Below the pieces are notes generated by a model. It saw only the letters and a program-made list of their open reading frames with translations, was not told the origin of the DNA and ran no database searches. Below, piece after piece: positions 30,922 through 52,883 of a stretch of 64,000 nucleotides of DNA (position 1 is the first letter of the stretch; every line of letters begins with the position of its first letter). The stretch is from Candidatus Omnitrophota bacterium (lineage in GTDB: Bacteria; Omnitrophota; Omnitrophia; Omnitrophales; Aquincolibacteriaceae). A program made the position numbers and the translations under genes. The stretch is from assembly GCA_903884815.1 (NCBI GenBank), contig CAISGE010000058.1:6583-70582 (forward strand), read 5' to 3'.

Positions 30922-30953
30922 TTATCATTAATTTCTTGATTGGAAATTAGCGT

Positions 30954-30997
30954 CGCCCTTGTCGGACATTAATGGAATGAAATAAACGACAAGGGCG
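30954..30997 (+). terminator. 11-bp stem / 22-nt loop hairpin 33 bp after the stop of giant gene 1
   Basis: CGCCCTTGTCG (30954-30964) pairs with CGACAAGGGCG (30987-30997). The large loop is atypical for an intrinsic terminator. Confidence 0.25.
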
Positions 30998-31013
30998 CAT
31001 AGCCTCCCCCTAG

Positions 31014-31046
31014 CGACCATTTCAACTGCGCTAGATGAAATGGTCG
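31014..31046 (+). terminator. perfect 10-bp stem hairpin between the giant genes
   Basis: CGACCATTTC (31014-31023), 13-nt loop, GAAATGGTCG (31037-31046). The nearest T6 run is about 28 nt downstream, so this may be a terminator or a regulatory structure. Confidence 0.3.
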
Positions 31047-31248
31047 AATGCATCTCTCAGATGGCCCATTTTTTAGTAAATCTAAAAAATATCTGCAACT
31101 CATTCCACCGTAATTACTTATGGTGTCCATCGAATTTGACACCTATGGGAAGTTATGTTACCTTTATAATGAACATTAAATAAGTGTTTAGTTCTGTCTC
31201 TCGTATAGAGAGAATTAAAATACCAGCCCAAAGGAAGTTACCGTTTAA

Positions 31249-34200
31249 ATGACGCAGTCCGAACTGTTTTCACAATTCTGGAAGCGCTCTGTCTCTCTGG
31301 GCGTTGCTCTGTCTTTTCTCGTGACAAGTGTGATCACGAATCCCGGTGTGGGCTATGGACAAACCGCGGGTATCGACTTTGCGAGAATCTTTTCAGCGCC
31401 AGTTGACCGGATGGCGGGACTTGCCGGATTGCCGGCGGAGATCGGCTCGGTTGTTGAAACATCAATTCGACAGACCCTAGACCACAGACCACAGACCACA
31501 GAAAAAAATGCAAGCCCTGCGGACCGTGGACCGCGGACTGAGGACTCGCTTGTCATTCTCCTCCAGGACGCTCACGCGAATCCAACCGCTCAGGAGAATA
31601 TTCGGCAGATCCTCCGCTATCTTTCCGGAAAATACAAAAATATGACCGTCGCTGTTGAAGGTTCCTCCGGCCAACTGCGCCCCGATTATTTCGATGTCAT
31701 CAAAAACCATCCCAAGGCCGGCGAGGCGATCCTTCGCGACCTCAGCGCCAAAGGCGAGATCACCGGAGCTGAGCTTTTTGCCTTTGAAGAGGCAAAAAAG
31801 TACGCAGTACGGGGTACGGCGTACGGCGAAAACGAGTCAGGTGGAAGGCTTACGGAGTATGGCGTGAAAGATTTAAACCCCGTACGCGGTACGCCTTCCG
31901 CCGTACGCGTCATGGGCGTTGAAAACACCGCGCTCTACCGCGAAGACTTGGAATTATTCCGTTCGGTTCAGAAAGATTTTCCTTCGATCACGAAGGCCCT
32001 CTTGCCCGTCCACGCGGCGCTGGATCAGGAAGCCTCCCGTGTTCTTTCACCCGAGCTGCGGGATTTCCTGAAGGAACGCGAGCGCCGGAAGAATGGCAAA
32101 TTCACAGCCTCTCAAACCGCCGGGGATCCTAATATCGCGGCCTATTCCAACTATCTCGCGAAACAGTCGAACAAGGTCCTGGCGATTGATCTTTCCGATG
32201 CCTTTGAGCAGTTGCGCTATCCGAATCTCATGCGCCTTCTCGCTCTCCAGAAGGATAAAGAAATCACGGATCCGGAGGCCGTCACCGCCGCGTGGGAAAA
32301 ATTCATGATCGATCTCGGCAATAAGATCTCCCAGGAAAAGGAATTTCTTTCGGCGCTGCGCTACTTTGCGGTCACGAACGGGCTTGTTCAGTCAAAGCGT
32401 CCGGCGGGGGAACTTCCGTTCCTCTATTCCAAAGAACTTCTTCCAAGAAAACTGCTTGAGTATCTCTATCACCTGAAGACCTCGGCCGGAATCCGGATGG
32501 AGGACTATCCGGTGGTTTTGAAGTCCTTCCGTTCGCTGATCCTGCGCTGCGAGATCGATGCCGCGGGCCTTTTTGAGGAAATGGATTCGCTTGAAGGCCT
32601 GATCACAGCCAAGCTCGCGGTAAGCGACGCGGAGAAAGCGCTCGTCAAACGTTTCGCGTTCCTTGAAAGACTTGAGAAAGCACTCCGACTCGAACTCGAT
32701 CGCAAAGAATACCGCGCTCTTGTGGCGGAGAAGGCATCCCTCCAGGAATTCACCAAGGCTTCGGACTTGCTTGCTGCGTCGCTTGACCGCGCGCTGAAAT
32801 TTTATGAACTTGCCGAGAAGCGCGACAGCGTGTTGCTCGAAAATGCCCTTGAGCTCGAAGCGGAAGGCGTACGTCGTACGGCGGATGACGGAAAATCAGG
32901 CTTGGCGCCTTCCGCCCTACACCTTCCGCTTTCCGAGGTGATTGTTCTTATCACCGGCGGCTTTCACACGGACGGGATCAAGGCGATCCTGGAGGAAAAG
33001 GGGATCCAGCACGCGGTCGTGATGCCGCGGATCACGTCGACCGATCACGGGGAGGCGTATCTTAAGACCATGAACGGCTCTAATTCCGACCTCTCAGCTT
33101 ATTTTAATGTCGCGAACCCGTTCCGGACAAAGCAGCAGGCCATTATTTTTAAAGGCATCATCGAAAACGCCGCTCCGTCTCTTGTTCAAGACGAAAATCT
33201 TTCCGTCTCGCAGGCCGCGAACCTTGTCCAGGACGCACTTACGAATCACCCGCTGCTCGCGAACGCCCTTCGCGCTGAATTTGCTCCCGTCATCCTGAGC
33301 GGAGCGAAGGATCTCAGCCGAGATTCTTCGGCTGGCGAGCCTCAGAATGACGAGTTGATCCATACGCTCATCATCACACCCGTTCAATTCCGTCCAACGC
33401 TGTCCGGCAATTCCGCCATTCCCGCGGAGCTCCTTTTCAGTCCCGATTATGAATCGACGGTGAGCACGGCGCCTTTTTCCGCCGCTGAAGTTACGATGAT
33501 GCCAGCGGGGAATATTGTCCGGCCGGTGGCGCTGTCATCCAAAAAAGTTTCGTTGAAATCGACCCGCGCCGAGACGCGGTCTTTTAAAAAAGCCGATCGC
33601 TCTGAGAAGCGGGATGAGCCATGGTTCCGGGCCAAGCGGCCTCTCAGAGACGGTGCCATTGCCGCGGCGATGATCGGGGCTTCCATCCTTTTGGTCCTCG
33701 CGCATCCCGGCTGGTATTTTGTCGTGCGCAACGGTCTGGGGCAGCTCGTCGGCCACCTGGCTTCGAGCCTTTTGGATAAAAAGTTCAACTTGCAGCGCTA
33801 CTTCCGGGCGGCCGCGTTCGGCGCGGGGTGGGCCCTGATCATTCCTCTTTACGCTTTCTGGATCCCCACGCTTCGGATCGCGCCGGTGGCGGGAGCGCAG
33901 CTGGATCTTTTCGGTTTCGCGCAGATTGGTGTCCTGGCCGGTTTCACGATCCTTGGAGAGATCTTCCTTCCGGCCCGGGATGGTGAGGGGACTTTGGGGC
34001 GGTTCTGGAGGACACTGAAATTCCAGACGAAGAACATCATTTACGCGGAAGGGGGATTTTTCATCAAGCAGATCACCTATTGGACGGCGCTCTCGGGGCT
34101 CTACTACGCTTCGGTCATTTCATTTCCCGCATTTTCACAGCTTATTGTGATCGCCGCCATGATCTTTGCGCTCCCGCAAGCCCTTGAATCCGTCCTTACA

Positions 34201-37200
34201 GATCAGGTCAAAATCGGTGAGGTTCCGGCACGCGGGAAATGGCAGGGCTTATTCCTGAAATACTGGCCGTGGTTCCCTGCTGTGTTCGTTCTGATGTCCG
34301 GCCTCTTCAACATTATTCCGCTAACGTCGGCGGTATTTCTTTTCGGTTCGGCCGTGGTCAGCCATCACCTCGCGAAGCTCGTGGTAGTTTTGAAAGAAAA
34401 AGTTTTCCCGCACGACGAAGAACCCGTGCTTGGCGCGGGAAACCCTGCCGTGGCGCCGGAGGGGATGAACCTCCATTACGATGCTTCAAAAAAAGTCTGG
34501 AAGGGATCCGAGATCACATGGCCGTCCGATGCCGGAAAGGCCTTGAGAGTCCATGGCTTGTCTTGGAAGAGAGATCGGGAGGATCCCATCCAGAAAGTGA
34601 TCGCAGGGCTTCCCCCTGTCAATTATTGGGATCCTGTTTCCGGAGAAATCCAAACGGAAGAAGCCGCGATCTTTTTCCGGCGCTACAGGACTCGTGCCAC
34701 GTGGGTGGTTCCTGAAGAGGAGCGTGAAGCCGCGTTTCGCCTGGCGGCCCTGTCCGGCGAGGAATTCCGGAGAGATGCCGTGGTCCGGGCGGCGATCAGC
34801 TCTTTTAGGGCTTACCTTCCTGTTCGAGGCGTGAACGAGCTGGATCGATTGCTCGCGGATCTTCAAGATCCAGCCAAAGTCCGGGAGGTTCTGACGGCCC
34901 CCTTTATGGCCGAGGACATGACGCGGCAACTTCTTTTTCAGGCCCAGAAGTTTGGCTTAGGTCCGATCAAGAGTGAAGCGAAAAACCTTAAGAAGTACGT
35001 CCTGGCTCGCCTTGTCCTCCAGGAAATCCTCCACCGGTTGAGTTTGTCGGATGATCTTTTACCTGACGCGAGTTCGTTACGTAGGTCAGGTTTAAACCTG
35101 ACCTACAATCCGGAACAGGATGAACAGCGGTCATATATAGAAGCCCGGCGCGAGAGCTGCCTGGCGGATCTGCACGAATTGGCCCACGACCTGATGCTGC
35201 ATTCCGGGACATTTACTTTTGCGGCTCGTGTGAATGTCTCAGGCATCGAAGCCGATTACGGTCCGGCGCTCGCGGAGGAGCTTCGTTCGAAAATTAATTT
35301 AATTGATGATCTGGAAATTCCGGCGGAACCGCTTACAGCGGAAATGTTACAGACGGCCCAGGAATCCTACAGGACGTTTTTGGTTACGCTGGGTGAGATG
35401 CGAGAGATCATGGTCCGGCATCAGCGCTCGACAGGCCCGGACGCGCCGGCGGAAAGTTTCTCTTATCAAAATCTCATGGACTCCTTGACGCATTATGAGA
35501 GCCTCATTCAGGAGGCTATGTTTCCGGCCATCGATCATTGGCTCGAGAATCTGCGAACCCAAGAGGCCTCGCAGGCGGCAGCGAAGCGGAATTCCGAAGT
35601 GAAACGCCTTCAGTTGCTTCCGGGGTTTTTGGCTCCGGGTGCTTCTTCGTCCGCGGCGCAGGGGGGCAAAAGGGCGGAAACGCGGAGGAAACCGAAAGAC
35701 GGGTTGCGGGGACCGAAGGAAAATTTAAACTCCGGTATCGTTAGGAGATTGCCCGTATGGGTTGTGGGTTCTCTGTTCGGCGCGATGGAGGGGTTGTACT
35801 GGTTGCTCAACCAAGCCATCTTCAACCTGTATGCATTCATTCAACTTCCCTATGAGGACTACACGGCGACTATCGCTTATCTGGTTGGGCCCGTGATCGA
35901 AGAGATCAAGGACCGGCTCATTCTTTTTAAATACGGTTTCATGCCGCGTATGAGTTCTACTGCGGCGGTACTCTCCAGTTCGGCAGTTTTTTCGGTACTT
36001 CATGTTTTGACATACTGGGCCGAGGATCCGATCCTGTTCGCGCCCCGGTTGATCGCATCTTTTGTTGCCGGCGTTTCTCTGGCGGCCAGTTACCGGATAT
36101 CGGGGACCCTGCTCGTCCCGATCGCGCTTCACATGATCCACAATGCCAAGGTAGATGCCTCAAATCCATTGCTCTGGGTCTGGGACGCTCTGTTTATGAT
36201 GATCTCGGTGTTTTATGTCTTTCGCGAGGCCTTCACACCGGCGCTTCAAAAACAGCTCGTCTCTCCGAAGGTTCCCACCTGGCGCAAATTGCTGGTGATC
36301 CGTTTACTGGGCGCCACTGAAACGAAGGAGGCTGAGACAGCGCTCGAGAATTTTATTGCTGCGAAGCCGTCTCCTTCCCCTGATTTATCAAAGGCCGCGC
36401 GCCGCGCGATAGATCAAATGAATCCGCGAAGCCTTCAAGCGAGTGAGAAGAAAAATCCCGTCGGTCGCGCCGAGACGCGCATTCGAGGAGTGATCGAGGG
36501 GATTCAGGCGATGGGGGATGTTCGCGCTCTCGCGTACCTGTCCTCCGCGATCGAAGGGGTGCAGACTTTAAATGATATTCAAGATCCCGAAGTCATGGAC
36601 GCATTAAAAAATGCATTCCAAACCGGTGAAATTGGTGAGATCGAAAATCAAGTTCAAAAAGTGCGGTGGTGGAAAATAGGTACGAAGAATTCATTTTGGA
36701 AATGTGCGCGGACTATTCGCGACAAATTGAACGAACTCCTTAATCCGCAATGGAGTCGTTTTATGCTCGCGGTGGATCAAATCGATCGTAAAGATGTATG
36801 CCAGCTTGTTTATAAGATCATGTCCGGAACGGATGAACCTTCTTTTTCATCGGCAGAACAGGCCTTGTTAGAAAGTCATCACGCGATCATAGATGTTTTT
36901 AGAGATTATCCCCGCCTGGCCCGTCTACTTGGGAATCTTCCTCCGGGTCTGATCATTCCTGAGGCATTGTCCCGCCGATTAAACGAGGTTTTTAACCGCT
37001 TGCGGTCAAAGGAATTGGAGTTCAACTTTCAAAGAATGCGGGCGACTTTTGACGCGATGCTGGCGGCCGGGAGAGTGATTGATGGTATTGATCGTGAACC
37101 GACGCTTGGTTTTGTAATAAGGATCGTTCGGGGTGAAGTGAATGCCGGGGATATTTTGAGTCATAATGAAAGGGAATCCCTGGCCGAGATCGAAATGCTA

Positions 37201-40200
37201 ACCGGAGCGGCAGGACTTGCCGAGGTCATCGCGGCCATTGGGACCGATCCGACCCTCATTCAAAAAGTCGAAATGCGGCGTTCTCTGTTAAGAATGAACC
37301 AAGAAATCGATAGAACGATGAGAGAACTTCAGACGAAATTCGAACATGCAACGGGTCCAGAGCAAGAAAGGCTTCGTCTGCTCTTGGAAGTGGCAGCTAA
37401 ATTAGGTGAAAACAAGCGGCAATTCTTAGAAGAACTTGGGGAGGGGAAAACAAATCAATTCCGTACCGAGATGCGGTCAACGTTGAAATTTCTTGTGGCA
37501 AGTGCCGTGGACGGGATGATCTGGGTCGGAACTTTGATTAGTTTCAAGAGACATTATGAAGCGGGGGTTTCTAATCCTCCGGCGGTCGCGACGGCTCCGT
37601 CGTTTCGTCCGGCTTCCTTCGATGATCCTATTTATGTGGTGCCGTCAGAGAAAGCGCTGCGGTCCAAGGACATTCTCACTCAGTTCATCGGCGATCCGCG
37701 GGGAGTCGCGAGGATCCGGGAAATGGATGAGATCGTCCGCCGGGAATTCGCCAAGGAAGCCGGTTCGCTCGACGCGTACATCCAATTTGCAAAAAGCGGA
37801 GAGGAGCGTCCGCTTGTCGTCCAGCAGGCGCTGTGGCTTGCTTCCAAGATGGACCCGGTTTGGCTCAAGTGGCTTAAGGAAAGAAATACCTCGATCTATT
37901 CGACCGACACGCCTGATTATGGCTACACGCGGGGGAGCCGGTTCTCTGGATATTTCGGGGAACCCCGCATTCGTGTTTCCAATGAGATCAAGTCTCCGAC
38001 GCAACTCGCCATTGTTCTTGCCGGTCACGAGGGCAAGCACGCGAACCGTTTGCCGCGTGATCTTCGCGGGGCGATATGGAACTCGCACATCATGCTGGAG
38101 AACCTCTTTCGAATCACAAAGCTGAATACGGAAGAAGTCGCGGCTTTCAATAGCGCGCGGATCTTCACGAACGCTCTCCTGAATGTAACACCGGAACCGC
38201 CTAATATCGGTTTTAACGACGCGAGTAAGCTCACCTACAGTTATCGTGATGCCGGTTGGGCTTTTGCTTTGGACGGGATCATTACAGTGGGTTGGTATGC
38301 TGTGGGTCTGACGTTCTGGGGTATCGGGTTAAGGAGTATGATCCGCAAAGATCGCCAGCGAGCGGAATGGAAGAAGTACGGCCGTTATGGCCCGAGGCCT
38401 GGGCAGACGCACACTCGGTCCGGATACGGCCGTGCCGAAAATCGGAATACGGCAGGCTCGGTAGACGGACCCGTCGATTGGACTCCCGGGTTGAATCTGG
38501 CGATCCTGGAATATTTCGGGCCCCGATGGTTGCCCGTCGAAAATAGAACAAGTGAAAACCTGAAAAATCGGCAGCGGATTGCGAGATTGATCATAGCCAC
38601 ATCGCTCAACAAGCGGGACTATCTGACAGACGATTTTGAATTTGTGGCGCCCCGGGAAGTGGTGGTCGCTGAAATGGAAGGTTTCCTTGATCACATGCAT
38701 GCCAACATGCGCCCCCTCATTGCCGGGTTGGAAGACCAGTACGGCGCTATTGCTGACGAGCTTGAACGCATCGTCACCGCCTCGCGCCCCGATGTGCGGG
38801 ATCCTGAACATGCGGGCTTCTTGCTGAGATCTCCCGGAGAATTCGATCTGCCCGCTCGCGTGGAGACACTGACGGATGCTGCTACGGGTGCACGAGAACC
38901 TGAAGTTGGCATTTCCGGGACAAGCGAAAATACCGGAAACGACCGTGCCGAAACGCCGAAGACGGAGGAAGAGCGGATCGATTTCCAGGATCTCGGCAAT
39001 GTTCTCACCGCGTTTTTTTCTCCAGAGCGCGTGGAGGGGTATTTTGACAGATACGACATCATTCGCATTATTTCAGCTTTTGTCATGTCGTTGGGGTCTT
39101 TTTACTATATGGATAAGTCGAATATTGCGGCCGTGGTTGCCATGGCGACTTTGTGGAATGTGCTGATCCTCATCCGGTCGATCATTACCGAAAGTGTGCC
39201 CCCTTTGTTGAAGAAAAAGGGCTGGTCGTTCTCTCAGATGCGCTGGGCTAAGTTTACCGCGCAGATGTTCTCTAGCGACATTTCGATCATAACGCTTGTC
39301 TTTTCGATGTTCGTCAACAATCACATCCTGAGCTTTTTTGACATGGCGAAGACGTCCCCGGGCGGGCTTGTAGTGTCGGGTTTTGTGATCGGAACGATGA
39401 ACGGCCTTCACGATGCTTTCTTCCGGGTCATACAGGGAGACTCCCGGCGCACGGTCATTCTGGATTTCTTCAGGGACTATGTGATGTACACGGTCCCTAT
39501 GCTGTTCGTCAATATTTTGCCGTTCCTGTCCAAACCGTTTTTTTACTCGGTATTTGCAAAAGTGATCGGGGAGACATGGGCCGGAATGGCAGAATGGCAA
39601 TCCGAGAGTTACTTGCCGGTAGTGGCAGGCGCGACGATGGAGGAGATGAGAAAAATGTTGCGGCAATTGCCTCGATGGAGATGGGATGACGGAGATAAGC
39701 CTCCCTGCCAGAGATCACTTACGCTAGAGGACACCACGATGATCGTGCGTGTGTCGAATAAAGATGAAGAAGGCTGGGCGATCCAGTTCAGAAAAATCGC
39801 GGAGGAAGGGAACGAGATGCTGACCCTTACATGGAGACCGAACGAGGGGCTGAGGGTTGGGAGAAAAATAGTCGAAGGACTTGATCCTTCGAAGAATCCG
39901 CTTGCCAGTTTTTCTTACGGAGATGACCCTGAAAAACCTCGAAACCTACGCCTCGTGTTCAGTAATGGGCAAGGCTTCACAATCTCTCAAGTCTCATCGG
40001 CTCCAAGGGAATCGGGTCCGGCGGGCTTTATTCTCGAAAACTTTCTCCTGTCCGAGGTGCAGCTCGCCGTAGAGAGAGCTGAAGTCCGTGACGGGGTCGG
40101 ATCAGGGGCGGAGATCGACCGGACCGGGATGAGGCTCACCCCCAGAACGCTTCTCGCTTCGAACGGATTGATGTCGGCAGTCGCGAAACATCTCGCCGCG

Positions 40201-43200
40201 CTCCCGGAGACGGACTTGAACGGAATTCTGAAAACGCAAGGAGTGAAGTTCCCCACAGGCGTGAGGGGAAGGCTTCTGGACACCTTTCAAGAGAGCGGCT
40301 TCAAGCAGGCTTTGCTTGGGGAATTCAGCCGAACGATGATGGCCGGCGGCGTGGTCCTTGTCGAGGCGGATGCCGGCTCTCTTCGAAGGCTCACAAAAAA
40401 TGACAAGGAATTCGAGCTGGTGTGGACCGGCGAGGACGGGAAGATCCATGTCCTTGAGCGCTTCTATGAATACCTGAATCAGATCACGAATGAGAAGGAA
40501 CGGATCAGTGTCGCCGCCGCGCTTTTCGCACGTCAGATCGCCGCAAGACTTTTTCTCCGGATCCTCAGCCAGGAGGACCCGCAAGCAAACACGAACCCCG
40601 TTCTGGCTCCCAAAATTCTCCTGAGTGCCCGTGCTGTTGAAGATTTCGTCTTTAACTCCGCGCCCCAAAAACTCGAAGAGTCGCAGGTCGATCTCCGCGC
40701 CCGCGGCTTCATACACCAGCAGATGTGGGAACGCCATGAACCCATGGCTCGCCATGCCGCGCCTCGTATCGATTGGGGCCCTAATGAACGCCGCATGAAA
40801 GGCCTTCTCAACCGGTTGGAGCTCATGCGCGACAAGTTGGTCACGGCCGGTAAAGTGACTCCTGCCGATCGCAAGGAAATAGACGATATAGACGCCTCTT
40901 TCACGCTGACTTTGAGCAAAAAGACGGCAGATGAGATTGCCCGGAAGGTCAGGGCCGCGACCGCCGTTGAAATTGAGGCGCAGCGCGAAAGACTGTTGCG
41001 GGCCTACGGCGTGATGCAAGGCCGGATCGTTGCGGCAGCCAAAAATCTCGAGGAGAGAATCATCTCGGAGAAGGCCTACCAGGAAACGACTTCCAAGGCG
41101 AACGCTCAGGCGAACGGGATCCTGAACCGGTTGATCAAGGCGGATCTCGCTCTGATCCGCGCCCAGCTTGAAATGAGAGTCTCCTTCCGTAACAGCCTGA
41201 ATGATCTTATCAATCACTTCGAAGAGAAGGTTCATGAACTCCAGTGGCGGAGCGTTCACGATCAGGCCCAGAACGAGATCAAAGAGGTTTTTGTCCGGGG
41301 CGCCGCAAGCGATGATTATTTGAAAGTCCGGATGCTGAAGGATGTGATCGATCGCCAGAGAAGGACGGGCGTGACCGAGCATAAGGAGTCACGGTGGAAT
41401 CACGAGGAGACATATTATCTGGCGACGATCAAGCAGCTCGTGGTCGCGCTCGCGGATGAAGAGGCGGCGGTTACGGTCAATCCCAAGGCGAGGCGCGCTT
41501 GGCTGCTCAGCTATCTCAGGATGAGAAAGGTCGATTTCGGCGGGAAAGCCGATGACGCGGTCATGCTGGATGACATTGCCGCGGCGATCTATTTGCGGCA
41601 GGACATCGCGGACGCCGTGATGAATAAAGTCGGGAAGTGGGCGCATTCCAGGCCTGCCGCCGGGCTTGATGATGCGGCGCTCAGGGAACGGGAGCTCATC
41701 GCCGAGCTGATCCCGGAGCCTGATGACGTGAGGCCGGTCGAGAGACTGAAGCGTATCCGCTATGCGAATCTGTTTAATTTCCTGCGGTCCCGCGATCATG
41801 TGCTTGAGACCTACGACCGCGAGGAGCGTAACGCGTGGCAGGCGATCGGTTTCTGGAATGACATCGCGTATCAGCTCAGAAACGCAAAAAGCGATGCGAT
41901 GACGGCCTCGCGTCTCCGGAATATCCGCTGGGACCTGGCGCCGATCGAGGAGTGGGTGGCGCACGCCCGCGTGGATGAGAAAACAAGGATCCGGGAACTT
42001 GTGGCGAAGGCGCGGGACAATGTCAAATTGGGGCAGTTCGACATCGTTCTTGACGCCGCCGCAGAAGCCCAGACGATACTCCAGAACGACTTTATTGAAA
42101 GGATTCGCCGGATGAGCCGGTATGTGGGCCAGCACAAGCAGTCCATCATGGCGGAGCTGGATACCGGCATGAAGCTGATCCGCTCCGGGATCCGCGAGAA
42201 TAGGCGTCGTGATTTCGGAAAGGCCTTGACCCGTTTCAGGAATTTTAAGGCACGGTATCTTGATGGCGCTAAGTCCACGAGCGAAGAGCCAGGCTATATC
42301 CGGGCGAAGAAGAATCTTACGATGGCGATCGCGGAGCTCGCGGCGGCTCATCAACTCAATTACGTTCCTGCCGAGGACCGTTTGCTCATCATTCTGAAAT
42401 GCCTCTATCGCGTTTGGTACGGCGTCGAGCATAAATACGAAACCATTCCTGAAATGGGCCCCGAAGCCGACGAGATCGAAGCCGAAGTCACTGCCCGCGC
42501 TCGCCAGGACCTCGCCCTCCGCGCCGAGATGCGGAAGGTGGAATTTCTTGGAGCCGATCATCCGATCGTTCGTGATCTGTCCGCGGCGACAACCGGGGCG
42601 GAGGTCAGAAAGATTTTGCCGCGGCTTATTCCCGAAGCTGCGGAGAGAAAGGCTTATTTGGCGTTTCGCGTGATCTCTCGGAATGCGGAAAAAGATGAGG
42701 CCCTTGAAGCCTTGGGGTTCTGGACGGACGTGAGCCGGTCGGACGCCATCGATGCTTTCGAGGCATCAATCCCTCAGAAGTTGGGGAAGCCGGGGAGCAT
42801 CAAAGGGATCGTTTGCTATCCTGGAAACAGGACTGTTGCGATCGAATTCCGGAATGGCGACAGCGTTGTGCTCGGCGTGAAATCCGGTTTTTATGGATCC
42901 ACAAAATTCGAGAACAACATAAGGGGGAACCCTTCCGCTTCGGATATTGCCGCGTTTCCGAAAATTCTACAGGGATATCTCCAAAATGGAAATTTGACGG
43001 TGCGGGGGGTGAAAGCGGATCTCCCTTTGGAGTATCTCTTGCCGACCACTATCCAGGTTGAAAAACTTGCCCAAAGCCTGCCTGATCTAGAGGGAGTTGT
43101 TGTAAGCGACTCGGCGTATCAGCAATATAAAGAGGTGCAGCAAAAAGCGGCAGCGGCAAAAGAGGCGAAACGGGTAAGAGATGCGATTCAGGCTGAAAGC

Positions 43201-46200
43201 GCTAAAGCTGCCGAGAAGGTGAAACTTAAAGACGCCGAGGAAAAGAGACTGGCCAAGGTGGCTCTCGAACAAGCCCAACGCGCAAAATGGAAAACGTGGA
43301 TCGCGCGATGGTCCCTGAGGGTGGGGGTTTCCGTCGGACTCGGGATCGGATGCCTGGTCGGTTACAAGATTCTGGATCTTTTGAAGTTGGACCGGCAGTC
43401 ACGCGCGGCGAGAATCATCAAACAGGACGTGACATCGCTTGATACCGATCTCGTGGAATATTTCGGGTACTATCCCTCCTTGGAAATCCCTTTCCAAAAA
43501 AATCTCGCCCGGTACGAAGAAGCGCTTTCGCACGCGAGTCTCAGTCAGGCGGAGGCGATGGAAAAGGCGACGGGGGATTACGATCTCGCGGCCGCCCTTG
43601 CCGGGATCGAAAAACAGCAGCAGGCCCTCGCGGCAATCCCGAGCGACGTCTTTGACTGGCGGGCGGGATACAGGCAGTACTTGAACCTTGTCTATGATCT
43701 CGCGACAAAAGATATCGAGCGCCGGTGGAAGGCAGCGGTAAAAGCCGGGATTCTTGCGGAGGCGGATCACCGTTCTCTTTCGGTATCGCTCCGCGAGTTG
43801 GTGAAAAATTCGATACAAGCTGAGATCGGAATCGCGGAGTCTCAAAAACTTCCGGTCAGGCCGATCGCCTTCATGGCCGGGCTCTTGCAACGTCCGCACC
43901 CGATCGTGGAACAGTTGCAACATTTGAAGCTGAAGAATGACCGGCCCGAAAAGGATCTGACGGTGATCGCGAGCGCGAGTGTGACGCTGCCTTATTCGCT
44001 TTACGCAAGAATGGTCAAGTATGCGGTCCATCAGGGCGGGACGGCGGCCGTATTTTTGGACGCGACACCTTTTCCGGGAAAGCCGGAGATCCTGACGATG
44101 ATCAACCCCGGCGGGAATACCATCGACGGGAAAATCACCGGCGGGAATATCACCGTTTGGTATCGCGGAAAGCCGGTGGGCAGTGCGCAAGCCAGCCGCA
44201 GGAATTTTGATATCGAGGGTCAGAAGATCCATCTCCTGAGCGCGGAGGGACAACCCGTCCGCACGATCGATGTGAGCAAATTCCCCGGCCTTCCCCGCAA
44301 CGAGTTGCGGGTGGCGGTTCCGGCGCAGGCGTCGGGGCGTATATGGAGATTGGGAATGGCGGATGTTCGCTCGCTTCCCGGAGCAAAAACCGTCGATCGG
44401 CTCAAGAATCTGGAGGATACAGAGGCCCGTAGTCTTTACACGAATTTGCCCGAGATGTTGCTTTCGGATGACGGGAAACTTGAGATCGCCGAAGAAAGCT
44501 TCAATCGGGGAATGGAAATCCTCCAGGAAAAGATCCGCCGTCTTAATGCGACGATCAAACTTATCGAGCGTAACGAGCCGGGTTCCGATTTGAAAGATAT
44601 TCTGGGAACCCATAGGGATGCGTTGGTGGAACTGGACAAAATCCTACAGAAAGACCCTCAAGCGATCGTGCAGCGCATGGCGAACGAGAATATCCGGTTC
44701 TCGGTGGTGTTTCTCGAGGAAGGCATTCTCAAGGATGGCCGGCGCGTTAACTATGGCAGTGAGATCGTGCTCGGGAAGCTTCGTAAGGGGTTGGCGATGG
44801 CGCAAACCATGCTGGCGCAGGCAATCGAGGGGTTGGAGCTGAACGCCTTTGTTGAAAAAGTTTTAGGGCTTCCCCGTCGTGAGCAGAGCGATTTTATGGC
44901 GAAAAGCGATGAGCTGAAGCGTTTGGATGAGGACGTGGCCGAGACTGTTAAAGCGGCGATCATCCAGGTCTCGATGTTCCGTAAGAACGTTTCGGATGCC
45001 GAAGAGTTTGACGCTGTCATGAAGGAGATCCTTGTGAAGATCCAGACGGAGGGAACTCCTGAGGATAGCGAGGCGGACGGTCACGCGAAATTCCTGGATT
45101 ACATGCTGTTCCCGGAGCAAGTGCCATCGCCGGAGCAGTATTTGGCTGAGCGGCGGGCGCACGGAAAACTTCTGAAGGCCGTTGTTCTTGTGGGCGAAGG
45201 TCTTAATGCTACGGGGCACTTGGCGATCGTGATCGGAAGCGACAACGAACCGCCCATTTTAGTTTCTATCACTCCGGAAAACATGAAGGAAGTCAAAAAA
45301 GCGATCGCCGAGAGTGGCGCCGGAGGTCAGGTCCCGATCCTCATCCGGCCTGCGGAGGCCGGTTCAGAGCGGAGCGTCAAAGAGGAAGGCGCTGCCGGCG
45401 TGGCCATCGAATTGATCGTCAATCCCTCGGCGGATGAGCTTGCGGAATACCGGCGGCAGGAGTGGATCCAGTCGCTTTGGCCCAAAGCCCTGGCCCGTTT
45501 CTCGCGCGGGATTACCCATTCGGTGAAGCTTAACATGCTGCCCGGTCAGGAGTCTGATCCCGACCATGATGTGGGGCTTTACCGGACCGAGATCATGACG
45601 GCCGAGAGGCTTCAGATCTATTTCGATCTTTTCAAGATCAAAACGGCGGAATTGAACGATCCTAAGGGGGGACGCGACGTGGGAGCGAACCTGAAAGATG
45701 CTCTTTGGCGCCGGCTTTATGAGGATATGGAAGATGAAATGCGGCATATTGCGGAGGATCCGACGCTTGCCGGTAAAAGATTTCGGATGAGGCCCGAGGA
45801 CCGTCGCAGTGACAAGAACTCGGAATATTATGTTGAAATGGAGATGAACGGGATCCCGAACGACGCGGAAGGGCAGGACCATTACCGGACACCGCTCGGA
45901 CGCATCGAGCTTACTTTCCGCCTGATGGCGACTTTGACAGCCGAGGCTATGGCGGCAAAATCCGGGAAGCCACATGCCAAATTCGAAGTGATCTATCCCG
46001 GCGTACGCGGGCCCGAAGACCTCGACTTCATTGAGAACGAGATCCTTCCGGAGGCGAGAAAGTTCGCCGCGCAACGGGTCGCGGAACTTTCGGGGGAGAC
46101 TGTTGAGGCGTCCGCTCGGGCGATCGCAGCCGCCGAGGCAAACATCCGTTTTGGGATGATGATCGAGCTTTCCGAAGCTGCTGTGGAGAATAGGCAGGCG

Positions 46201-49200
46201 CTGTTGACGCGCCCAGGATATTTGGATTTCAGTGTCGGGTCAAACGATCTTGAGACGAGCCTTGCGGATAAAGCTTCACAGGCCAAAGGGGGGCCGAGGA
46301 TCACTCGCGATAGCCCGGAGATCAGTCAAGCGAAAGGTATCATCGGAGAAGATATGCGGGAGATCGTGACCGGTTGGGCGAGTGATATTGACCGTATGAA
46401 CCGTGAGGCAGCGCCGGGACAGGAGAAAACGCTTTCGATCTGCGGGGAGAAAGCGGCAGACAAGGAAGGACGCAACTTCTTCGGGCCTTTTTTCAACGAC
46501 CTTGTACAGCGCTTTCCGCGTGCGAATCTTTCCCGAAGTATGTCCGTGGGGAGCATTCCTTACACTGCCACGCTTGAAAATTTGCTTCGTATGCCGCAGT
46601 ACTCCGGCATCGGCTCCGTTTATAGCCAGCCCCGTCAGACCGAATTGCCTCTCGAGACTGGGGCGACGGAAGAAGCTCCGGAGGTCGAAGCCGGACGCGA
46701 GGTGGAGGCTCTCATGCAGAACCTCAGGCCCGTAATGCTCGTTCTGGAGCAGTACCAGTCCCGCTACGAACGTGAGGGTTTTTACGATGCCTTGCATCTG
46801 CTCAAGATCAATATGAGGGACGGCATCGGGGGGCTAGCCGAATTTCAATATCTGGACCGGATGCTTACGGCTGTTTCGAAAGAGGACAAGAAGCCTTCCG
46901 CCGACGAGCTCTATGTGGATCCCGACCAGAGGATGAACGCTGCCGGCCTCCGAACGCTTCTTAAAAAACTCAAAACGCACGTCAAGTCCGGTTCGATCAG
47001 CGCGGAGGATATCGATTTGCTTGAGGAGGCATTTAAATTTATGACGTCCCTCCAGGAGTCTTTTGAGACGGCGAGCAAGAAGGACCCCGAACTTTTTGGC
47101 CACTCACTCAATTTGCACAACATGGAAGAGTTCCTGAAAGTTTATCCTTTGGCTTCGGGCGATCCGACGCGCCAAGCCTACGATCTCATATCCCAATATC
47201 AGGCCTACGCGGAGAAAGTTTTCACTATCACGGCTCGCTTCCTTTTCACGGTGAGTCAGGAAAAATTCCCCCCAGAGATCGCGAGCGAAAAAGATCTCGG
47301 GGTAGCGATGTCCGATCAGAGTGGGAAAGTATTTTTCATGGAGCAGGAACGGAAGGGGATCAGTTTTTATTTGGGGGAAGGTTTTGTCTATGGCATCGGC
47401 CGGTATCTGGAGGTGAAGAATGCCCGGGCGTGGCTTGAGGCGAACCCGGAGCGGCTCCTGGAGATCTTCCGTGTTGCGGCGCAGCGCGGCCTGAGGATCT
47501 CGCAGTCGACACAGCAGGCGATCGAGGGTTTTCTGGCGTCCCAGGGGCCCATCGTTCCTGACGAGGTTCAGCGTGCCTGGATGAAGGATTTTGATCATAT
47601 CCTGAAATCCCCCGGGAATGCGGAGTATGCGTTGATCCGCATGGCGCGATTGGGAGTGCTATCAACCCTTTTTCCGGAATCCGTGGCGAGCCGGGGCGTG
47701 CGGGCACGTGAGGGAAACCATTTTGATCTTTTTTCGGATGCGCTTCGCAATTGGGAAATGCTCGGGGCGTTACCCTCTCAAAAAAACCCTGTTTACAGTC
47801 TTGCCCAGGAGACCCTTCACCAAGAGGGGACGAGTCCTACTGGGTTGAGCGATCTTCGACTGGCATTTTTCCTTCCCAGTCTTACGAGGGGATGGGATCT
47901 GAATTCGTCGCCTGCAAGCAGACTTGCGTTGGTTCGTAGCGTCCTGCGTCCCTACGCGAATGCCACTGAAATGAAGCTTAAGGATTTTGTGGGCTGGACG
48001 GCGCGTCTTGTGCGGCTGCTCGATAAACAAGCCTCTCTACTTCAGCATGATTTTCTGACGGATGCTGAGGTTTCCAGGGCGTTGGAGCATCTGACGAAAG
48101 GGATGGAACGCTCCGACATGGAGCTTCTGCGGCAGATCTATCTTATGGCGTTTGTCGCCCGGGCGGGACTGCCCGATTCGGTTGACCGCGGCATGGGCGA
48201 ACGACAGGGACTCGATTCGCCGCTGGCTGATCTCGACACAATGTCTCTCGCCGCGCAGCTCTTGATCGCGGAGGAGCCCGTCAGAGCAGCGGCTTCCGCG
48301 CGCATCGCGGAGGCCGAAGCGGTTGCGCGTCAACAAATGCGGGATGTTGCGGTGGAGAGTGGTTCTGCGCGGCTGCAGGCTTTTGAGCGGATCCGGTCGG
48401 GAGTGCTGAGTGATCTTGCCAATACCGGGGCCATGAGTCGAACCCTGAATGCTTATCTCAAAGTGAACAGGGTGTTGCCGGATTTTCGTAAAAAAGCCGT
48501 GGAGAATGTCGATCTCAAGATCAAGAAGAAGCTTGGCGTCCTTGCGGACGGGACCTTGGATCGTGATGTTGCAACGGCTTTTTTTGATCGCTACGCGCAG
48601 CGAGTCTCGAAATATTATGTCGCGTCCGTGGATGAAGCGACCGTGATCCAGGACCTTTTGATGCTCGCGCATCTTGAATCGGTGCATGAGGAGGAAGGCC
48701 TTGAGCCCGCGGTAAGTTTCCGGGCGTTGCCGCATCACCATCAGCAGGCTTTCGAGATTACTTTCGGATTTCCGATGGCCTCCCCGAGCGCTCTGGCGGT
48801 TTTTCTCGGCATTTTGGCGAACCGGGGTTTTTCCATTACCAACGGACGGCTTTATCCATCGGGGGACGAGAACGCGCCTGTGATAATGAAGTTTTCGGGT
48901 GTTTTCGAACAGGGGCATGTGGACGCCCAGGCCATGCGCATGCAGATCGCCACGGATGTCCAGTCGATCCTGGAGCCGGAAACATTGCCGAAGAAGCGGG
49001 CCACCTTCTTCGGTCGCGCCCGCGACATACTATCCGTATTCTTTCTCGGGGAGAGGAAAAATCGTTTTAATCGTCTGGCCGATCGGTTCCCGGAAGGGTT
49101 CACGGTCCAGAGCTTGAAAGCTGAATGGGAGAAAGCGGAGACACAAGTCGAACGGCTTCCCCGGGACCCCTCCAAGAATTTCACCACGTTTGTGATCTCG

Positions 49201-52200
49201 ACCGATATGCGGCGAGGTCCATTTTACCTGGTGGCCACGCTCCTGGCGAATACCCGGGTTTTGGTCACGGGCTTTGAATATGACACCATGAACGGGAGGC
49301 GCTCGCGTCTGAGATTGGATCTGACGCATAGCGGCCTGCCTCTCCGCCAAGACATGGAAGAAGGCATTGAGCAGGATCTTAAACGCTATCTGGGAATGGA
49401 ATTTGTCCGCGTGAAGGGGGATGAGATTGTCCCGGTAAAACGCTCCGAAGGGCGGTTGGAGTTTTGGTCCTTTGGGGATTATGAGAAGGCGTTAAAGGGG
49501 ATCCCGGTTGCGAACCGAAAAGCATTCGACGATTTTCATAATGAAGTGACCAGATTTCTTGGATCGCATGGGGAATATGTGACTCAGGCGAATCTGAATC
49601 GCGTGATCGGGATCGTCCGGGACCCAGATCAACCCGAAATTGTCCGCTATACCGCCGCCAGGCTTCTGCGCCATTTTCCGAAGTTTGATTCGTCACTCGT
49701 CAATGAAAAGAATCGAAAGAATGCCTCCGGGCTTTTGAGTGATCGCGATTCCTTAGGTCTGGCAGGCAGTAGTTATCGCTTTGAAATGGAATTTAATGCT
49801 TTTCTGCTTCAGTCCGGGGGAACCATTGACGGGGGATGGCTGCTAGGAGGCGGCGTTTCGGCGCCATCGGCGCCCGTTTCTAATACTGCAAGCCTTCCCG
49901 GAAAGCGCACTGAGATGCGAAAAGACTTCGATCAGGCGGCTTTGGATGAATTCCTGAGTGCGTTGAACTATACGCTTACCGGCAATATTCGGCTTAGAAA
50001 ACGTGCGACGGTGAGCTCCTCCATTGTTGTTTCTCCGTCCACTCTGCGGTTTCCAAACCCTGCTGAAGTTAATATGACCGTCAGCATTAAAGAATCCGGC
50101 GAGGGCGCGATCCTTCCTCAGGCGGAGAAGGAATATTTCAGGGACTATTTGAATTCAACCTTCCGCCGTTCCTATGTGGAGGCCTTCGCGTTAGATGGAT
50201 ATGCTCAGTACACATTGTCCTCTTATGATCTCTCGGAAACGGATCAGTCCGTTCAGGTGAAGATTAAATTTCAGCTTCGCGCCGGTCCAGTTCATGAGCC
50301 TCGTACTGATTCGGGGGAGGCCGATGTCCTGCGTTTCGAGGCGCGAGCAGCGACAATGGATGCATTGAAAGACATGCTTCACGAACCCGAAAGGATGCCG
50401 GGGTGGAATTGGGTGGGCCGTGGCAAGGTCCAGCGCTTCATTAAAGTGGGCCCCTCGGTGGGGATCGTCCGTGTGACGGAAGACTCCTGGGGAATCGATA
50501 TCAGCGAGCCGGCGCGTGGCGCTGACCGGTTGACGATTACCTGGAGTGAAGAGGAAGGGTTGTGTGTCGGGCGTCAAGAGATCAAAGGCTTTCGTGGCAA
50601 AGGGAAAAGCCCGCTCGTGAGCTTCTCGTACGCAGAAAACGACACGTACCCACAGGACTTCAGTATTGCATTCACGCCGGAAGTTTACACCAAGGACACC
50701 GAAGGGCTTCTCCCGGAGGATAACCACGCGTCCACCACCCGGGGAGTGGGGCCTATGGGTTACACCTTTAAAGGCCGATCCGAGCACCGGCATTTTCCGG
50801 AAGCCGTGGCCGTTGATGACGAAAAAGCCGCAGAGATCGCGGCTGTGGTGGCGACGTATTTTCCTCCTGAGCTTCCTAAAGTCAAGGTCCTCACAAAACA
50901 GAACGCGAGTCAGTATCTGAGATACTTTTCAACGCTGGTCATTCGGATCAGGTCTTCAGGCATTCTGGATGCCTTGCCCGACCAGATATGGGTAAAAGAC
51001 ACGGGCGATTTGCTGCCGCGAATGATCGAGAAAAAGACCTGGTTTAACCGGCATGAGTTCGGGAATTTCGCGACAGTGGTCGGCGCAGTTAGTAGCGCTG
51101 AGACGGATTATCCGAGCGTCGCGGAATACCTGGCGGAGGTCGAGCTGAAGAAAAAAAGACCGGAAGAGATCCGTAAGGCCCGTGATAGTTACGATCTCGG
51201 GAGGATCCGGAATGCGGATGAGGTGCTGGGTATTTTTGCGGAGCTGTGCCGGGACCATTTTGACTTGTTCGAAGATAAGTGGAAGGAAACGAAAGCGGAC
51301 GGTAGTCTTAAATATGAAGCTACGGAGGACTCGCCGATCCCTTATCAATGGATCGTTCCGTACATGGTCCACAGATCTTTTGGCAAGGGGGGGAGGGAAA
51401 TCCGGGAAGCGGTCTTCAGAGAAGCGGTCAGGCGTACTGAAAAAATCTGGCCTCAGGTTCGAAAGTACACCCAGAAGATCTTTACCGAGATCCAGGCTGA
51501 ATGGGACGATGCCGTGCTCCGGCTGGATTTGCCTGCAGCTGCGCCAGTCGAGACGGCGCCAGTGCAACCTGTGCCGGAACTCGTCCAGGGCGATCTTTTC
51601 CGTGGAGAGCTTCGCGGCTCGACCGCGCAGGTCAAGACAGCGCTTGAAAAGTTATTTGATCGGAGCGAGAAACGGAACCTCGTTCCGGAGTGGGTGCCCC
51701 AAGAAAATATTCAGGCGATCGAAGGTGCGGCGGCTGAAGCGGATCATTTTTATTCTGTCCCGGGCCTCGAGGTTTTGATGGAGCCGGACCGGCGCTTCGC
51801 GGCGCGGCTATGGATCGCAGATCGGCTGATCAAGGCTTTCGAGACGCAGCAACCCAAGCCGGGCACGATCGAGAATGCGGCGCTGCGAACCGTGATCGAT
51901 TCCTTGAAGCGCTTTCAGCTGACGGGGACGGCGGATTCTGTTCTGGAAACAAAAGGAATCCACGTGTCACTGCCGGTCCTTATGCCGGAACAGTATCAAG
52001 AACTGGCGGAACTCGCGCCTGTCTTTCTCGCGTTTGCCGTTTCACTTAACGCGAAACTTTATTTGAATGTGAAAGGCCAGGATCCGGAAAAACTAAAAAC
52101 CTTATTTCTTTCCGCGGCGACCCGGAACGGTATTGAGGCAAAGGCGTTTCTTGAGATTGTGGCGGTCCGGGGTTCTCAAGCTTTTACGTCCGCAAAGGAG

Positions 52201-52805: not shown

Positions 52806-52883
52806 GTCCCCATCGTCTAGGTTGGTCTAGGACACCAGGTTTTCATCCTGGTAACAGGGGTTCAAATCCCCTTGGGGACGCCA
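52806..52883 (+). tRNA. tRNA-Glu (anticodon UUC), CCA encoded
   Basis: Cloverleaf read by eye: acceptor GTCCCCA/TGGGGAC, anticodon stem CCAGG/CCTGG with loop TTTTCAT (anticodon TTC), T-arm AGGGG-TTCAAAT-CCCCT, discriminator G, CCA. Nearly collinear with E. coli tRNA-Glu. Confidence 0.9.

What the first reader, a model, noticed from the sequence alone, without database searches (positions are those of the whole stretch)
31473..31909. Matching heptanucleotide SSR cluster plus A7 tract near the 5' end of giant gene 2
(GACCACA)x3 with a degenerate fourth copy is followed directly by a G-A7 homopolymer at 31473-31508. Then come GTACGGN x3 (31807-31827) and period-7 GTACGCS x4 (31882-31909). The GTACG-core heptamer is the same family as in gene 1, although the two N-terminal domains are only distantly similar at the protein level. 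This suggests the repeats are maintained or seeded by a common DNA-level process. Both giant genes could be independently switchable.
Basis: seen in the sequence. Interest (0 to 1): 0.68.

Follow-up and report, generated by a model that had tools for sequence, protein, structure and literature searches.

The report
Palindromic heptamer repeats in giant-gene loops
The 7-base repeats are real, but rather than looking like on/off switches they belong to a set of hairpin-forming 7-base repeat modules that sit in frame in the floppy surface loops of one N-terminal protein domain of giant genes in many Omnitrophota bacteria, a pattern I did not find described in the papers I searched.

Summary
In detail: (GACCACA)x3 plus a degenerate copy, then A7 (31473-31508), GTACG-core heptamers at 31799-31828 and 31880-31908, plus unreported arrays at 31519-31546 and 32866-32886. 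Period 7 is the only enriched tandem period in the window, and all arrays lie in the N-terminal domain DNA of the two giant genes.

Each cluster is an in-frame insertion in a loop predicted with low confidence. Most are inverted pairs: a 5' array, an A-rich spacer and a roughly complementary 3' array.

Across 80 Omnitrophota genome loci, array density is 32 per 100 kb in this domain, 0.5 in the rest of the same ORFs, 0 in 546 kb of other ORFs and 10.8 in non-ORF DNA. A partly overlapping metagenome set repeats the pattern. The same loops are hit with a limited set of unit families.

Phase variation is not supported:
- Arrays have at most 6 units.
- 159 of 160 domain ORFs are intact; the exception is an error-ridden contig.
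- Four assemblies of gene 1 show no length change.
- Close relatives keep a module unchanged or replace it whole.

The A7 tract is ordinary. Best reading: long-lived translated heptamer-palindrome modules acting as swappable loop cassettes. Their function is unproven.

The parts
31249..52464 (+). Giant gene 2 (7071 aa). It has an N-terminal hydrophobic helix (residues 4-25 in the model) followed by the conserved domain.
   Evidence: ORF list, translation, AF2 secondary structure.
31249..33350 (+). DNA for the conserved N-terminal domain of about 650-700 aa (motifs QDAH, EG, GGFH). It is shared with gene 1 and with many Omnitrophota genes, and it is the only place in gene 2 where heptamer arrays occur.
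   Evidence: BLASTP of gene 1 against gene 2, E 1e-25. Alignments A1-A3. 225 and 286 tblastn-confirmed relatives. No Pfam or PDB sequence match.
31473..31500 (+). Module A, 5' array: GACCCTA GACCACA GACCACA GACCACA. Encodes LDHRPQTT (loop 1).
   Evidence: A 28-nt stretch (about 31479-31506: array plus the start of the A run) is 96% identical to L008 at the same loop, although the proteins are only 42% identical.
31502..31508 (+). A7 run, the start of the A-rich spacer of module A. L008 has A5GA3 and L122 has A8 at the same place.
   Evidence: A7 and T7 runs are common in the window: 19 in total, and no A or T run is longer than 7.
31519..31546 (+). Module A, 3' array: GCGGACC GTGGACC GCGGACT GAGGACT. 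It is partly complementary to the 5' array. The antisense strand folds at -40 kcal/mol against -17 for the sense strand.
31799..31870 (+). Module B, 5' array: AGTACGC AGTACGG GGTACGG CGTACGG. It then continues in register as degenerate units (GAAAACG AGTCAGG TGGAAGG CTTACGG AGTATGG).
31880..31908 (+). Module B, 3' array: CCGTACG CGGTACG CCTTCCG CCGTACG, the reverse complement of the 5' array. The 31796-31914 stretch folds at -51.1 kcal/mol, z = -3.8. It encodes loop 2 (residues about 185-220).
32860..32935 (+). Module in loop 5, just before the GGFH motif. It contains a 10-bp stem, GCGGAAGGCG (32860-32869) pairing with CGCCTTCCGC (32906-32915), around GTACGTC GTACGGC (32868-32880).
   Evidence: The AF2 model has low confidence at residues 542-560.
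3119..3147 (+). Gene 1, loop 4 array: GGTCAAC x4.1. It is followed by a perfect 13-bp inverted repeat, 3150-3162 with 3186-3198.
3334..3368 (+). Gene 1, loop 5 array: CGCCGTA CGCCTTA CGCCTTA CGCCAGA CGCCGCG (CCGTACG family).
3632..3658 (+). Gene 1, loop 6 array: CCGTACT CCCTACT CCGTACT CCGTACG.
3761..3784 (+). Gene 1, loop 6 array: CCGTACA CCGTACT CCGTACG.

Best explanation
The SSR cluster is part of a set of palindromic heptanucleotide-array modules. Each module has a 5' array of about 4 units, an A-rich spacer of 8-50 nt, and a 3' array of about 4 roughly complementary units, 70-110 nt in all.

The modules sit in frame in the DNA for loops, predicted with low confidence, of a conserved N-terminal domain found in both giant genes. 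They are translated as hydrophilic loop peptides.

This is not private to this genome. About one in five homologous genes across Omnitrophota carries such modules, at the same six or seven loops. The units come from a limited repertoire: GTACGGN, AGACYNN, GGAGGGC, GGGGAAC, GCGCAAC, GGTCAAC, GTGGACC.

Most likely mechanism (inferred): the arrays arise by replication slippage, which favours a 7-nt register in many bacteria. Intrastrand template switching then makes and maintains the inverted arm. The modules persist because the loops tolerate them. They are exchanged as whole cassettes by recombination anchored in the conserved motifs that flank each loop. The net effect is loop diversification, not frameshift on/off switching.

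Shown here: the anatomy, in-frame status, placement in low-confidence loops, domain-specific enrichment, short-term stability, and whole-module replacement.

Inferred: the generating mechanism, and any selective benefit.
For: Insertions in loops: every array cluster corresponds to a gap in the paralogue or in orthologues. The AF2 low-confidence segments 75-97, 187-217 and 542-560 coincide with the array-encoded residues.

Period specificity: in 1.16 Mb of GTDB Omnitrophota loci there are 57 arrays at lag 7 against 0-4 at other lags. In 0.6 Mb of JGI contigs there are 34 against 0-2.

Domain specificity:
- 54 arrays in 168 kb of domain DNA
- 2 in 379 kb of the rest of the same ORFs
- 0 in 546 kb of other ORFs
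- 7 in 65 kb of non-ORF DNA
The second set gives 30 of 34 arrays in the domain.

Recurrent loops: arrays cluster at gene 2 residues 70-102, 181-225, 244-262, 352-386, 490-513, 530-567 and 644-705.

Palindromic architecture: 15 of 57 elements are inverted array pairs, with mean fold z of -3.2. The loop 2 insertions of 90-132 nt are mostly long imperfect hairpins built from at least six different unit families.

Stability:
- 159 of 160 domain ORFs are intact.
- Four assemblies of gene 1 have identical arrays.
- The loop 1 and loop 4 modules of L011 and L090 are conserved.

Whole-module replacement: in L011 versus L090, which are 95-98% identical in the background, loops 2 and 5 are swapped for unrelated families. 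In L124 versus L138, 92-95% identical in the background, loop 1 is swapped exactly between the conserved motifs, with a 21-nt length difference. Each type is shared with a more distant relative.

Heptanucleotide units are reported as the most abundant class of long SSRs in most of the bacterial genomes surveyed, attributed to polymerase slippage (cited in PMC4679880 and PMC4692102).
Against: Tolerance alone does not explain why the domain density is about 3 times that of non-ORF DNA and about 60 times that of the rest of the same giant ORFs, which must also contain permissive linkers.

Slippage of 7-nt units in a coding region shifts the frame. It is therefore unclear how arrays become homogenised without passing through null alleles.

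In 16 of 19 inverted pairs the 5' arm is more purine-rich than the 3' arm. This model does not predict that.

The module A 5' array plus the start of its A run (28 nt) is 96% identical between proteins that are only 42% identical. That suggests either constraint on the nucleic acid or lateral exchange.

No read-level data were examined, and there is no expression or proteomic evidence that the loops are translated as written.
Confidence: 0.5

Rival explanations
1. Classical contingency locus. Slipped-strand mispairing adds or removes a 7-nt unit (or one A in the A7 run). That shifts the frame early in the giant ORF, so each giant gene switches on and off independently, as in neuO.
For: The units are not multiples of three, and they lie in the first 0.2-2 kb of the ORF. 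Frameshifts at module A would hit stops at 31539 or 31643. Published surveys report that SSRs are enriched near N-termini of prokaryotic genes (cited in PMC4692102). neuO shows that a 5' coding heptanucleotide tract can act as a switch (PMC13001214).
Against: Only 3-6 units, often imperfect. There are several different tracts per gene rather than one long one.

159 of 160 homologous domain ORFs are open, and the exception has at least five frameshifts, mostly outside arrays. In neuO, 65.6% of genomes are out of frame and tracts have 3-53 units (PMC13001214).

There is no copy-number change in four assemblies of gene 1, nor in the retained modules of L011 and L090. The arrays come as inverted pairs, and similar arrays occur in non-ORF DNA. 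The A7 run is one of 19 such runs in the window.
Confidence: 0.1
2. The modules are selected nucleic-acid structures: hairpins in the 5' 2 kb of the giant mRNA, or hairpins or cruciforms in the DNA. They could act in mRNA stability, pausing for co-translational targeting, processive transcription of a very long gene, or as recombination signals. On this view the peptides are a by-product.
For: Arm complementarity is kept while unit sequence differs completely between orthologues at the same loop. In loop 2 alone the pairs are GTACGGC/CCGTACG, AGTCCAC/GTGGACT, AGACCAG/CCAGTCT, GGAGGGC/CTCCATC and GCAACGC/GCGTTGA.

Inverted pairs fold with mean z of -3.2, and module B with z of -3.8 to -4.7. The fraction of strongly folding windows is raised at loops 1, 2 and 5: 0.11-0.16 against 0.025 in the background.

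Module A is conserved far beyond the surrounding protein. Density in the domain exceeds that of non-ORF DNA.
Against: Only about 20-25% of homologues have arrays, and many loops fold no better than background. There is no sense-versus-antisense stability bias: 26 against 31. Several arrays have no partner (for example gene 1 at 3334, z = +1.7). No Rfam family matches. Palindrome correction by template switching can maintain complementarity without selection.
Confidence: 0.2
3. The modules are copies of small non-autonomous mobile palindromic elements (MITE, REP or RPE-like). They insert throughout the genome and survive in ORFs only where a loop tolerates them.
For: They are palindromic, 70-110 nt long and in frame in low-confidence loops. 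Similar heptamer-array hairpins occur in non-ORF DNA of the same genomes (L005 at 3339, 5252, 6614, 7665; L011, L073, L075). Modules are present or absent, and are replaced, between close relatives.
Against: No module has a second full-length copy anywhere in 1.8 Mb of sampled Omnitrophota DNA. Only the 7-nt unit type and the architecture are shared. There are no arrays in 546 kb of other ORFs, and no target-site duplications or conserved termini are evident. Neither a transposase nor a RAYT gene was looked for.
Confidence: 0.08
4. A chance or compositional artefact of a GC-biased coding sequence.
For: Individual arrays are short, with TRF scores of 32-58.
Against: Zero arrays in shuffles. Only lag 7 is enriched. 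The pattern is replicated in two collections and is tied to one protein domain.
Confidence: 0.01

Closest known systems
neuO poly-heptanucleotide (AAGACTC) tract of E. coli K1 / phage CUS-3
   Same: Heptanucleotide tandem repeats inside the 5' coding region that are translated when in frame. The unit even resembles the AGAC-type units seen here (PMC13001214).
   Different: neuO has one long perfect tract of 3-53 units. It is highly polymorphic, two thirds of genomes are out of frame, and it has no inverted partner. Here there are 3-6 units and several tracts per gene, mostly as inverted pairs. The tracts are stable and always in frame.
Bacterial heptanucleotide long SSRs: cyanobacterial STRR repeats, TAACTGA repeats of Beggiatoaceae and cyanobacteria, GGGAATC repeats of Xanthomonas and Nostoc
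   Same: A strict 7-nt period and diverse units. The modal array size is about four units in the Xanthomonas/Nostoc GGGAATC-type repeats. Function is unknown, and a proposed polymerase-slippage origin is cited for heptameric repeats (PMC4679880, PMC4692102). The Omnitrophota non-ORF arrays look like this class.
   Different: Those repeats are overwhelmingly intergenic and are under-represented on coding strands. Here the highest density is inside one protein-coding domain, in frame, and arranged as palindromic pairs.
Rickettsia palindromic elements (RPE) inserted in frame in protein genes (from my own knowledge: Ogata et al. 2000, not retrieved here)
   Same: Palindromic DNA inside ORFs, translated, and located in surface-exposed segments without destroying the fold.
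   Different: RPEs are families of near-identical 100-150-bp copies spread over many unrelated genes. Here no full-length copies exist, the elements are built from 7-nt arrays, and they are confined to one domain family.
Variable-loop cassettes of antigenic-variation genes, such as pilE/pilS mini-cassettes and vlsE (from my own knowledge)
   Same: Short hypervariable segments bounded by conserved sequence that are replaced as units between close relatives.
   Different: No silent donor cassettes, recombinase or initiating structure have been identified. Donors could simply be other alleles or paralogues.
Erythromycin-esterase / ChaN / TraB / Tiki-like fold (for the host domain only)
   Same: Alternating strand-helix core with conserved His and Glu motifs (QDAH, EG, GGFH). 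The top, non-significant Foldseek hit is 3b55, which from my own knowledge is EreA-like, and EreC is at rank 44.
   Different: No significant sequence or fold match: Pfam none, PDB profile E 0.2 to an unrelated protein, Foldseek E 0.7. The domain also has a large helical insertion. This is a lead only.

Membership tests
SSR-driven phase-variable (contingency) gene | Tandem repeat with a unit that is not a multiple of 3, inside the 5' part of the reading frame or the promoter | tested here: met
   7-nt units lie 224-660 nt and 1610-1690 nt into gene 2, in frame.
SSR-driven phase-variable (contingency) gene | A long, near-perfect tract, enough copies for high slippage rates | tested here: not met
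   At most 3-4 perfect units in the window and at most 6 anywhere in the 160 loci. neuO has 3-53, and its commonest count is 20 (PMC13001214).
SSR-driven phase-variable (contingency) gene | Copy-number polymorphism between closely related strains or within a population | tested here: not met
   Gene 1 arrays are identical in 4 assemblies that differ by 2 SNPs in 9 kb. The retained modules of L011 and L090 show no unit change. Gene 2's own tracts could not be tested: there is no second assembly or read set, and the metagenome scan found no close relative.
SSR-driven phase-variable (contingency) gene | Out-of-frame (OFF) alleles common among sequenced genomes | tested here: not met
   0 of 80 GTDB loci and 1 of 80 JGI loci have a broken domain ORF. 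The one exception has at least five frameshifts, mostly outside arrays.
Heptanucleotide long SSR (Mrazek-type LSSR / STRR-like) | Head-to-tail repeats with a 7-nt unit, over-represented relative to other periods | tested here: met
   Lag 7 is the only enriched period in the window and in 1.76 Mb of related loci.
Heptanucleotide long SSR (Mrazek-type LSSR / STRR-like) | Predominantly intergenic location | tested here: not met
   54 of 63 arrays are inside one coding domain, and 7 are in non-ORF DNA.
In-frame palindromic mobile element (RPE / MITE / REP-like) | Palindromic, short, and tolerated in frame in exposed protein segments | tested here: met
   Inverted array pairs fold with mean z of -3.2. 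The AF2 low-pLDDT loops coincide with them.
In-frame palindromic mobile element (RPE / MITE / REP-like) | Multiple near-identical full-length copies dispersed in the genome | tested here: not met
   blastn-short of 9 modules against 1.8 Mb finds only self matches, identical assemblies, and one 28-nt orthologous match. A whole genome was not available.
Known structured RNA family (Rfam) | Match to a curated covariance model | tested here: not met
   The only hit in the window is a tRNA at 52806-52880.
Programmed -1 ribosomal frameshift site at the A7 run | A conserved slippery heptamer with a downstream structure and a productive alternative frame | tested here: not met
   A_AAA_AAT is present, but the -1 frame ends at 31539. 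The run is A5GA3 in L008.

The most novel reading that the evidence does not exclude
Omnitrophota giant genes carry a dedicated loop-diversification system. Palindromic heptamer-array modules at six or seven fixed loops of the N-terminal domain would be recombination-prone cassettes: hairpin or cruciform sites bounded by the domain's most conserved motifs. They would be swapped between alleles or paralogues to vary the exposed head of a giant surface protein. That would be a form of cassette variation built from non-triplet microsatellites, and I know of no precedent for it.
Probability: 0.2. Interest if true: 0.85.

Novelty: new variant of a known kind. Interest (0 to 1): 0.62.

Why it matters
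Non-triplet microsatellites are normally purged from coding DNA, or else exploited as frameshift switches. Here they are most abundant inside one protein domain, always in frame, arranged as hairpins, and conserved as an architecture in many Omnitrophota genes. That gives a concrete marker and a testable handle on how the enigmatic giant genes of these putative predatory or parasitic nanobacteria evolve and vary. It also bears on the old unanswered question of what bacterial heptanucleotide repeats are for. Finally, it is a warning against reading every 5' coding SSR as a phase-variation switch.

Tried and rejected
- Phase variation: tested by ORF integrity in 160 loci, by four assemblies of gene 1, and by close relatives. 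Not supported.
- Apparent 12-nt indel in L003: it is a run of N, not a polymorphism.
- L122 broken ORF: a contig with many frameshifts, not evidence of switching.
- Compensated frameshifts between paired arrays: the alternative frames of the spacers contain stops (31539, 31865, 31874), so there is no specific support.
- Untranslated or bypassed insertions: rejected, because all are in frame and stop-free.
- A7 as a hypermutable tract or -1 frameshift site: ordinary frequency, not conserved.
- mRNA-specific structure shown by G-U asymmetry: no sense-versus-antisense bias.
- Mobile element with conserved sequence: no copies found.
- Formal column-wise covariation on loop 2: the MAFFT alignment of the 16 loop sequences was too gapped. 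Arrays also appear to pair in shifted registers. The analysis was abandoned in favour of per-sequence folds.
- Close relatives of gene 2 in JGI metagenomes: none found.
- A shuffle-based z-profile timed out. It was replaced by a GC-regressed MFE profile.
Full report
CONTEXT. The window holds two tandem giant ORFs: gene 1 (1882-30921, 9679 aa) and gene 2 (31249-52464, 7071 aa). Their closest relatives are Candidatus Omnitrophota proteins. Pfam finds scattered enzyme domains along the genes but nothing in the first 700 residues. The two N-termini share a domain of about 650 aa at 24% identity (E 1e-25), with invariant QDAH, EG and GGFH motifs.

THE OBSERVATION.
- I found three further items: an array at 31519-31546, a third module at 32860-32935, and a degenerate continuation of the 31801 array.
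- Period 7 is the only enriched tandem period in the 64 kb. All arrays fall in two short stretches, 3119-3784 and 31473-32935, which are the N-terminal domain DNA of the two genes.
- Shuffles give zero arrays and zero GTACGNNGTACG matches, against 5 and 9 observed.
- The A7 run is one of 19 A7 or T7 runs in the window and is unremarkable alone.

ANATOMY.
- Aligning the paralogues and three database homologues shows that each array cluster is an insertion relative to the others.
- In an AlphaFold model of gene 2 residues 1-700 (pLDDT 66, five-sequence alignment), the low-confidence segments 75-97, 187-217 and 542-560 are exactly the array-encoded residues.
- Most clusters are inverted pairs. 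Module B (31796-31914) folds at -51 kcal/mol, z = -3.8. The arms of module A pair better on the antisense strand, -40 against -17 kcal/mol. The loop 5 module has a 10-bp perfect stem.
- In 13 of 19 inverted pairs the spacer has more A than T, against 4 with the reverse.

COMPARATIVE EVIDENCE.
- A profile scan of GTDB species genomes returned 80 Omnitrophota loci (1.16 Mb). These hold 57 lag-7 arrays against 0-4 at any other lag.
- With a stricter caller, density per 100 kb is 32 in the domain, 0.5 in the remainder of the same giant ORFs, 0 in 546 kb of other ORFs, and 10.8 in non-ORF DNA.
- 19 of the 80 genes carry at least one array.
- Arrays map to about seven hot spots on the protein alignment.
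- A second sample from JGI metagenome contigs (80 loci, 0.6 Mb, 7 of them identical to GTDB loci) gives 34 lag-7 arrays against 0-2 at other lags, with 30 in the domain.
- Unit families recur across genomes: GTACGG, AGACY, GGAGGGC, GGGGAAC, GCGCAAC, GGTCAAC, GTGGACC.
- GTACG tandems occur in 16 other loci, nearly all in the domain.
- At loop 2, orthologues have insertions of 90-132 nt. These are mostly long imperfect hairpins built from different unit families, each with a matching 3' arm.
- Gene 2 and L008 (42% protein identity) share module A: a 28-nt stretch of its 5' array and A run is 96% identical. In module B they share the GAAAACG spacer but have different units in both arms.

DYNAMICS.
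- Four independent assemblies of gene 1's first 9 kb differ by two SNPs and no array change. A supposed 12-nt indel is a run of N.
- In 159 of 160 loci a single open frame covers at least 95% of the domain match. The exception, L122, has at least five frameshifts in about 1 kb.
- L011 and L090 are 95-98% identical in the background. Their loop 1 and loop 4 modules carry 2-3 substitutions. Loops 2 and 5 are replaced by unrelated families, with flanking blocks at 75-85% identity, a mosaic pattern.
- L124 and L138 are 92-95% identical. Loop 1 is replaced exactly between the conserved PAEMG and QDAH motifs, with a 21-nt length difference. Each type is shared with a more distant relative.
- No module has a full-length copy elsewhere in the sampled DNA.

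INTERPRETATION.
- The switch hypothesis is not supported. The tracts are short, multiple, paired, stable and never out of frame. neuO, by contrast, has 3-53 units and is OFF in 65.6% of genomes (PMC13001214).
- I favour long-lived, translated heptamer-palindrome modules. They would be generated by slippage in the 7-nt register reported for many bacteria (PMC4679880, PMC4692102) together with template switching. They would be retained in low-confidence loops and exchanged as cassettes.
- A selected hairpin function remains a serious rival, because complementarity is kept across unit changes and the domain density exceeds that of non-ORF DNA.
- Against a selected hairpin: only about a fifth of homologues have arrays, and there is no strand bias in stability.

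NOVELTY.
- Two papers on Omnitrophota giant genes do not mention tandem or heptamer repeats.
- Rfam has no matching family.
- Heptanucleotide SSRs, palindromic elements inside ORFs and heptanucleotide switches are each known.
- I did not find the combination described: non-triplet arrays, palindromic, in frame, and confined to one domain across many Omnitrophota genes.

LIMITS.
- No reads, no complete genome of this organism, and no expression data were available.
- The structure model rests on a shallow alignment.
- Coding status in the loci was approximated by long ORFs.
- The identity of the domain is unresolved.

Noticed in passing
window 3150-3162 and 3186-3198 (also 2997-3023): A perfect 13-bp inverted repeat, CACTCCCGGTGTG / CACACCGGGAGTG, lies inside gene 1 right after the GGTCAAC array. 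The same ACNCCGGG(T/A)GTGGA motif occurs three times as a direct repeat encoding TPGV(D/E). The stretch 3110-3215 folds at -33 kcal/mol, z = -2.5.
   Followed up: partly
19 inverted array pairs in the window and loci (listed): In 16 of 19 pairs the 5' arm is more purine-rich than the 3' arm. For a palindromic module this asymmetry reads the same on both strands, so it cannot be an orientation effect. It is unexplained.
   Followed up: partly
window 30954-30997 and 31014-31046: Two 11-bp-stem hairpins lie in the 327-nt gap between the giant genes: CGCCCTTGTCG...CGACAAGGGCG and CGACCATTTCA...TGAAATGGTCG. The simple scan found no sigma-70-like promoter in 30800-31600.
   Followed up: partly
L002 (contig k141_216006), gene at 5954: In another assembly the gene 1 product is recorded as 9567 aa, against 9679 aa in the window. 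The first 9 kb are identical apart from 2 SNPs, so a length difference of 112 aa lies further downstream. It could not be fetched.
   Followed up: no
L033 3920-4000; L034 765-956: Loop 2 of two homologues holds near-perfect long hairpins without obvious 7-nt arrays. L033 folds at -51.7 kcal/mol over 81 nt. L034 has a perfect 15-bp stem, GGTGTAGTGGCAATTC / GAATTGCCACTACACC.
   Followed up: no
L058 960-1130: A palindromic GTACGGC / GCCGTAC module with an additional GCCCGCCGAGGTGGGC / GCCCACCTCGGTGGGC stem lies 7.6 kb upstream of the domain match. Its coding context was not checked.
   Followed up: no
L005 3339-3416, 5238-5284, 6610-6686, 7665-7717: Intergenic heptamer-array hairpins in a related Omnitrophota genome. 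One lies directly upstream of a probable tRNA gene (recognised by eye, not checked with a tool). One has a T7 run in its loop and an A6 run after it.
   Followed up: partly
L122 (Ga0124853_1361307): The contig has at least five frame changes within about 1 kb of the domain. One falls inside the CTCCAGT array, but most do not. It is probably a low-accuracy assembly.
   Followed up: yes
window 44108-44155: A period-15 tandem repeat, CCGACGGGAATACCA x3.2, lies inside gene 2. It is a triplet-compatible repeat, unlike the heptamers.
   Followed up: no
window 52806-52880: A tRNA gene on the + strand (Rfam 58.7 bits) immediately downstream of gene 2. It overlaps the start of a mechanically listed minus-strand ORF (52843-54360).
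   Followed up: no
L020 10453-10481, L055 10245-10273: The (GGAGGGC)x4 arrays contain four GGG runs with 4-nt spacers, which is a canonical G-quadruplex motif on the coding strand.
   Followed up: no
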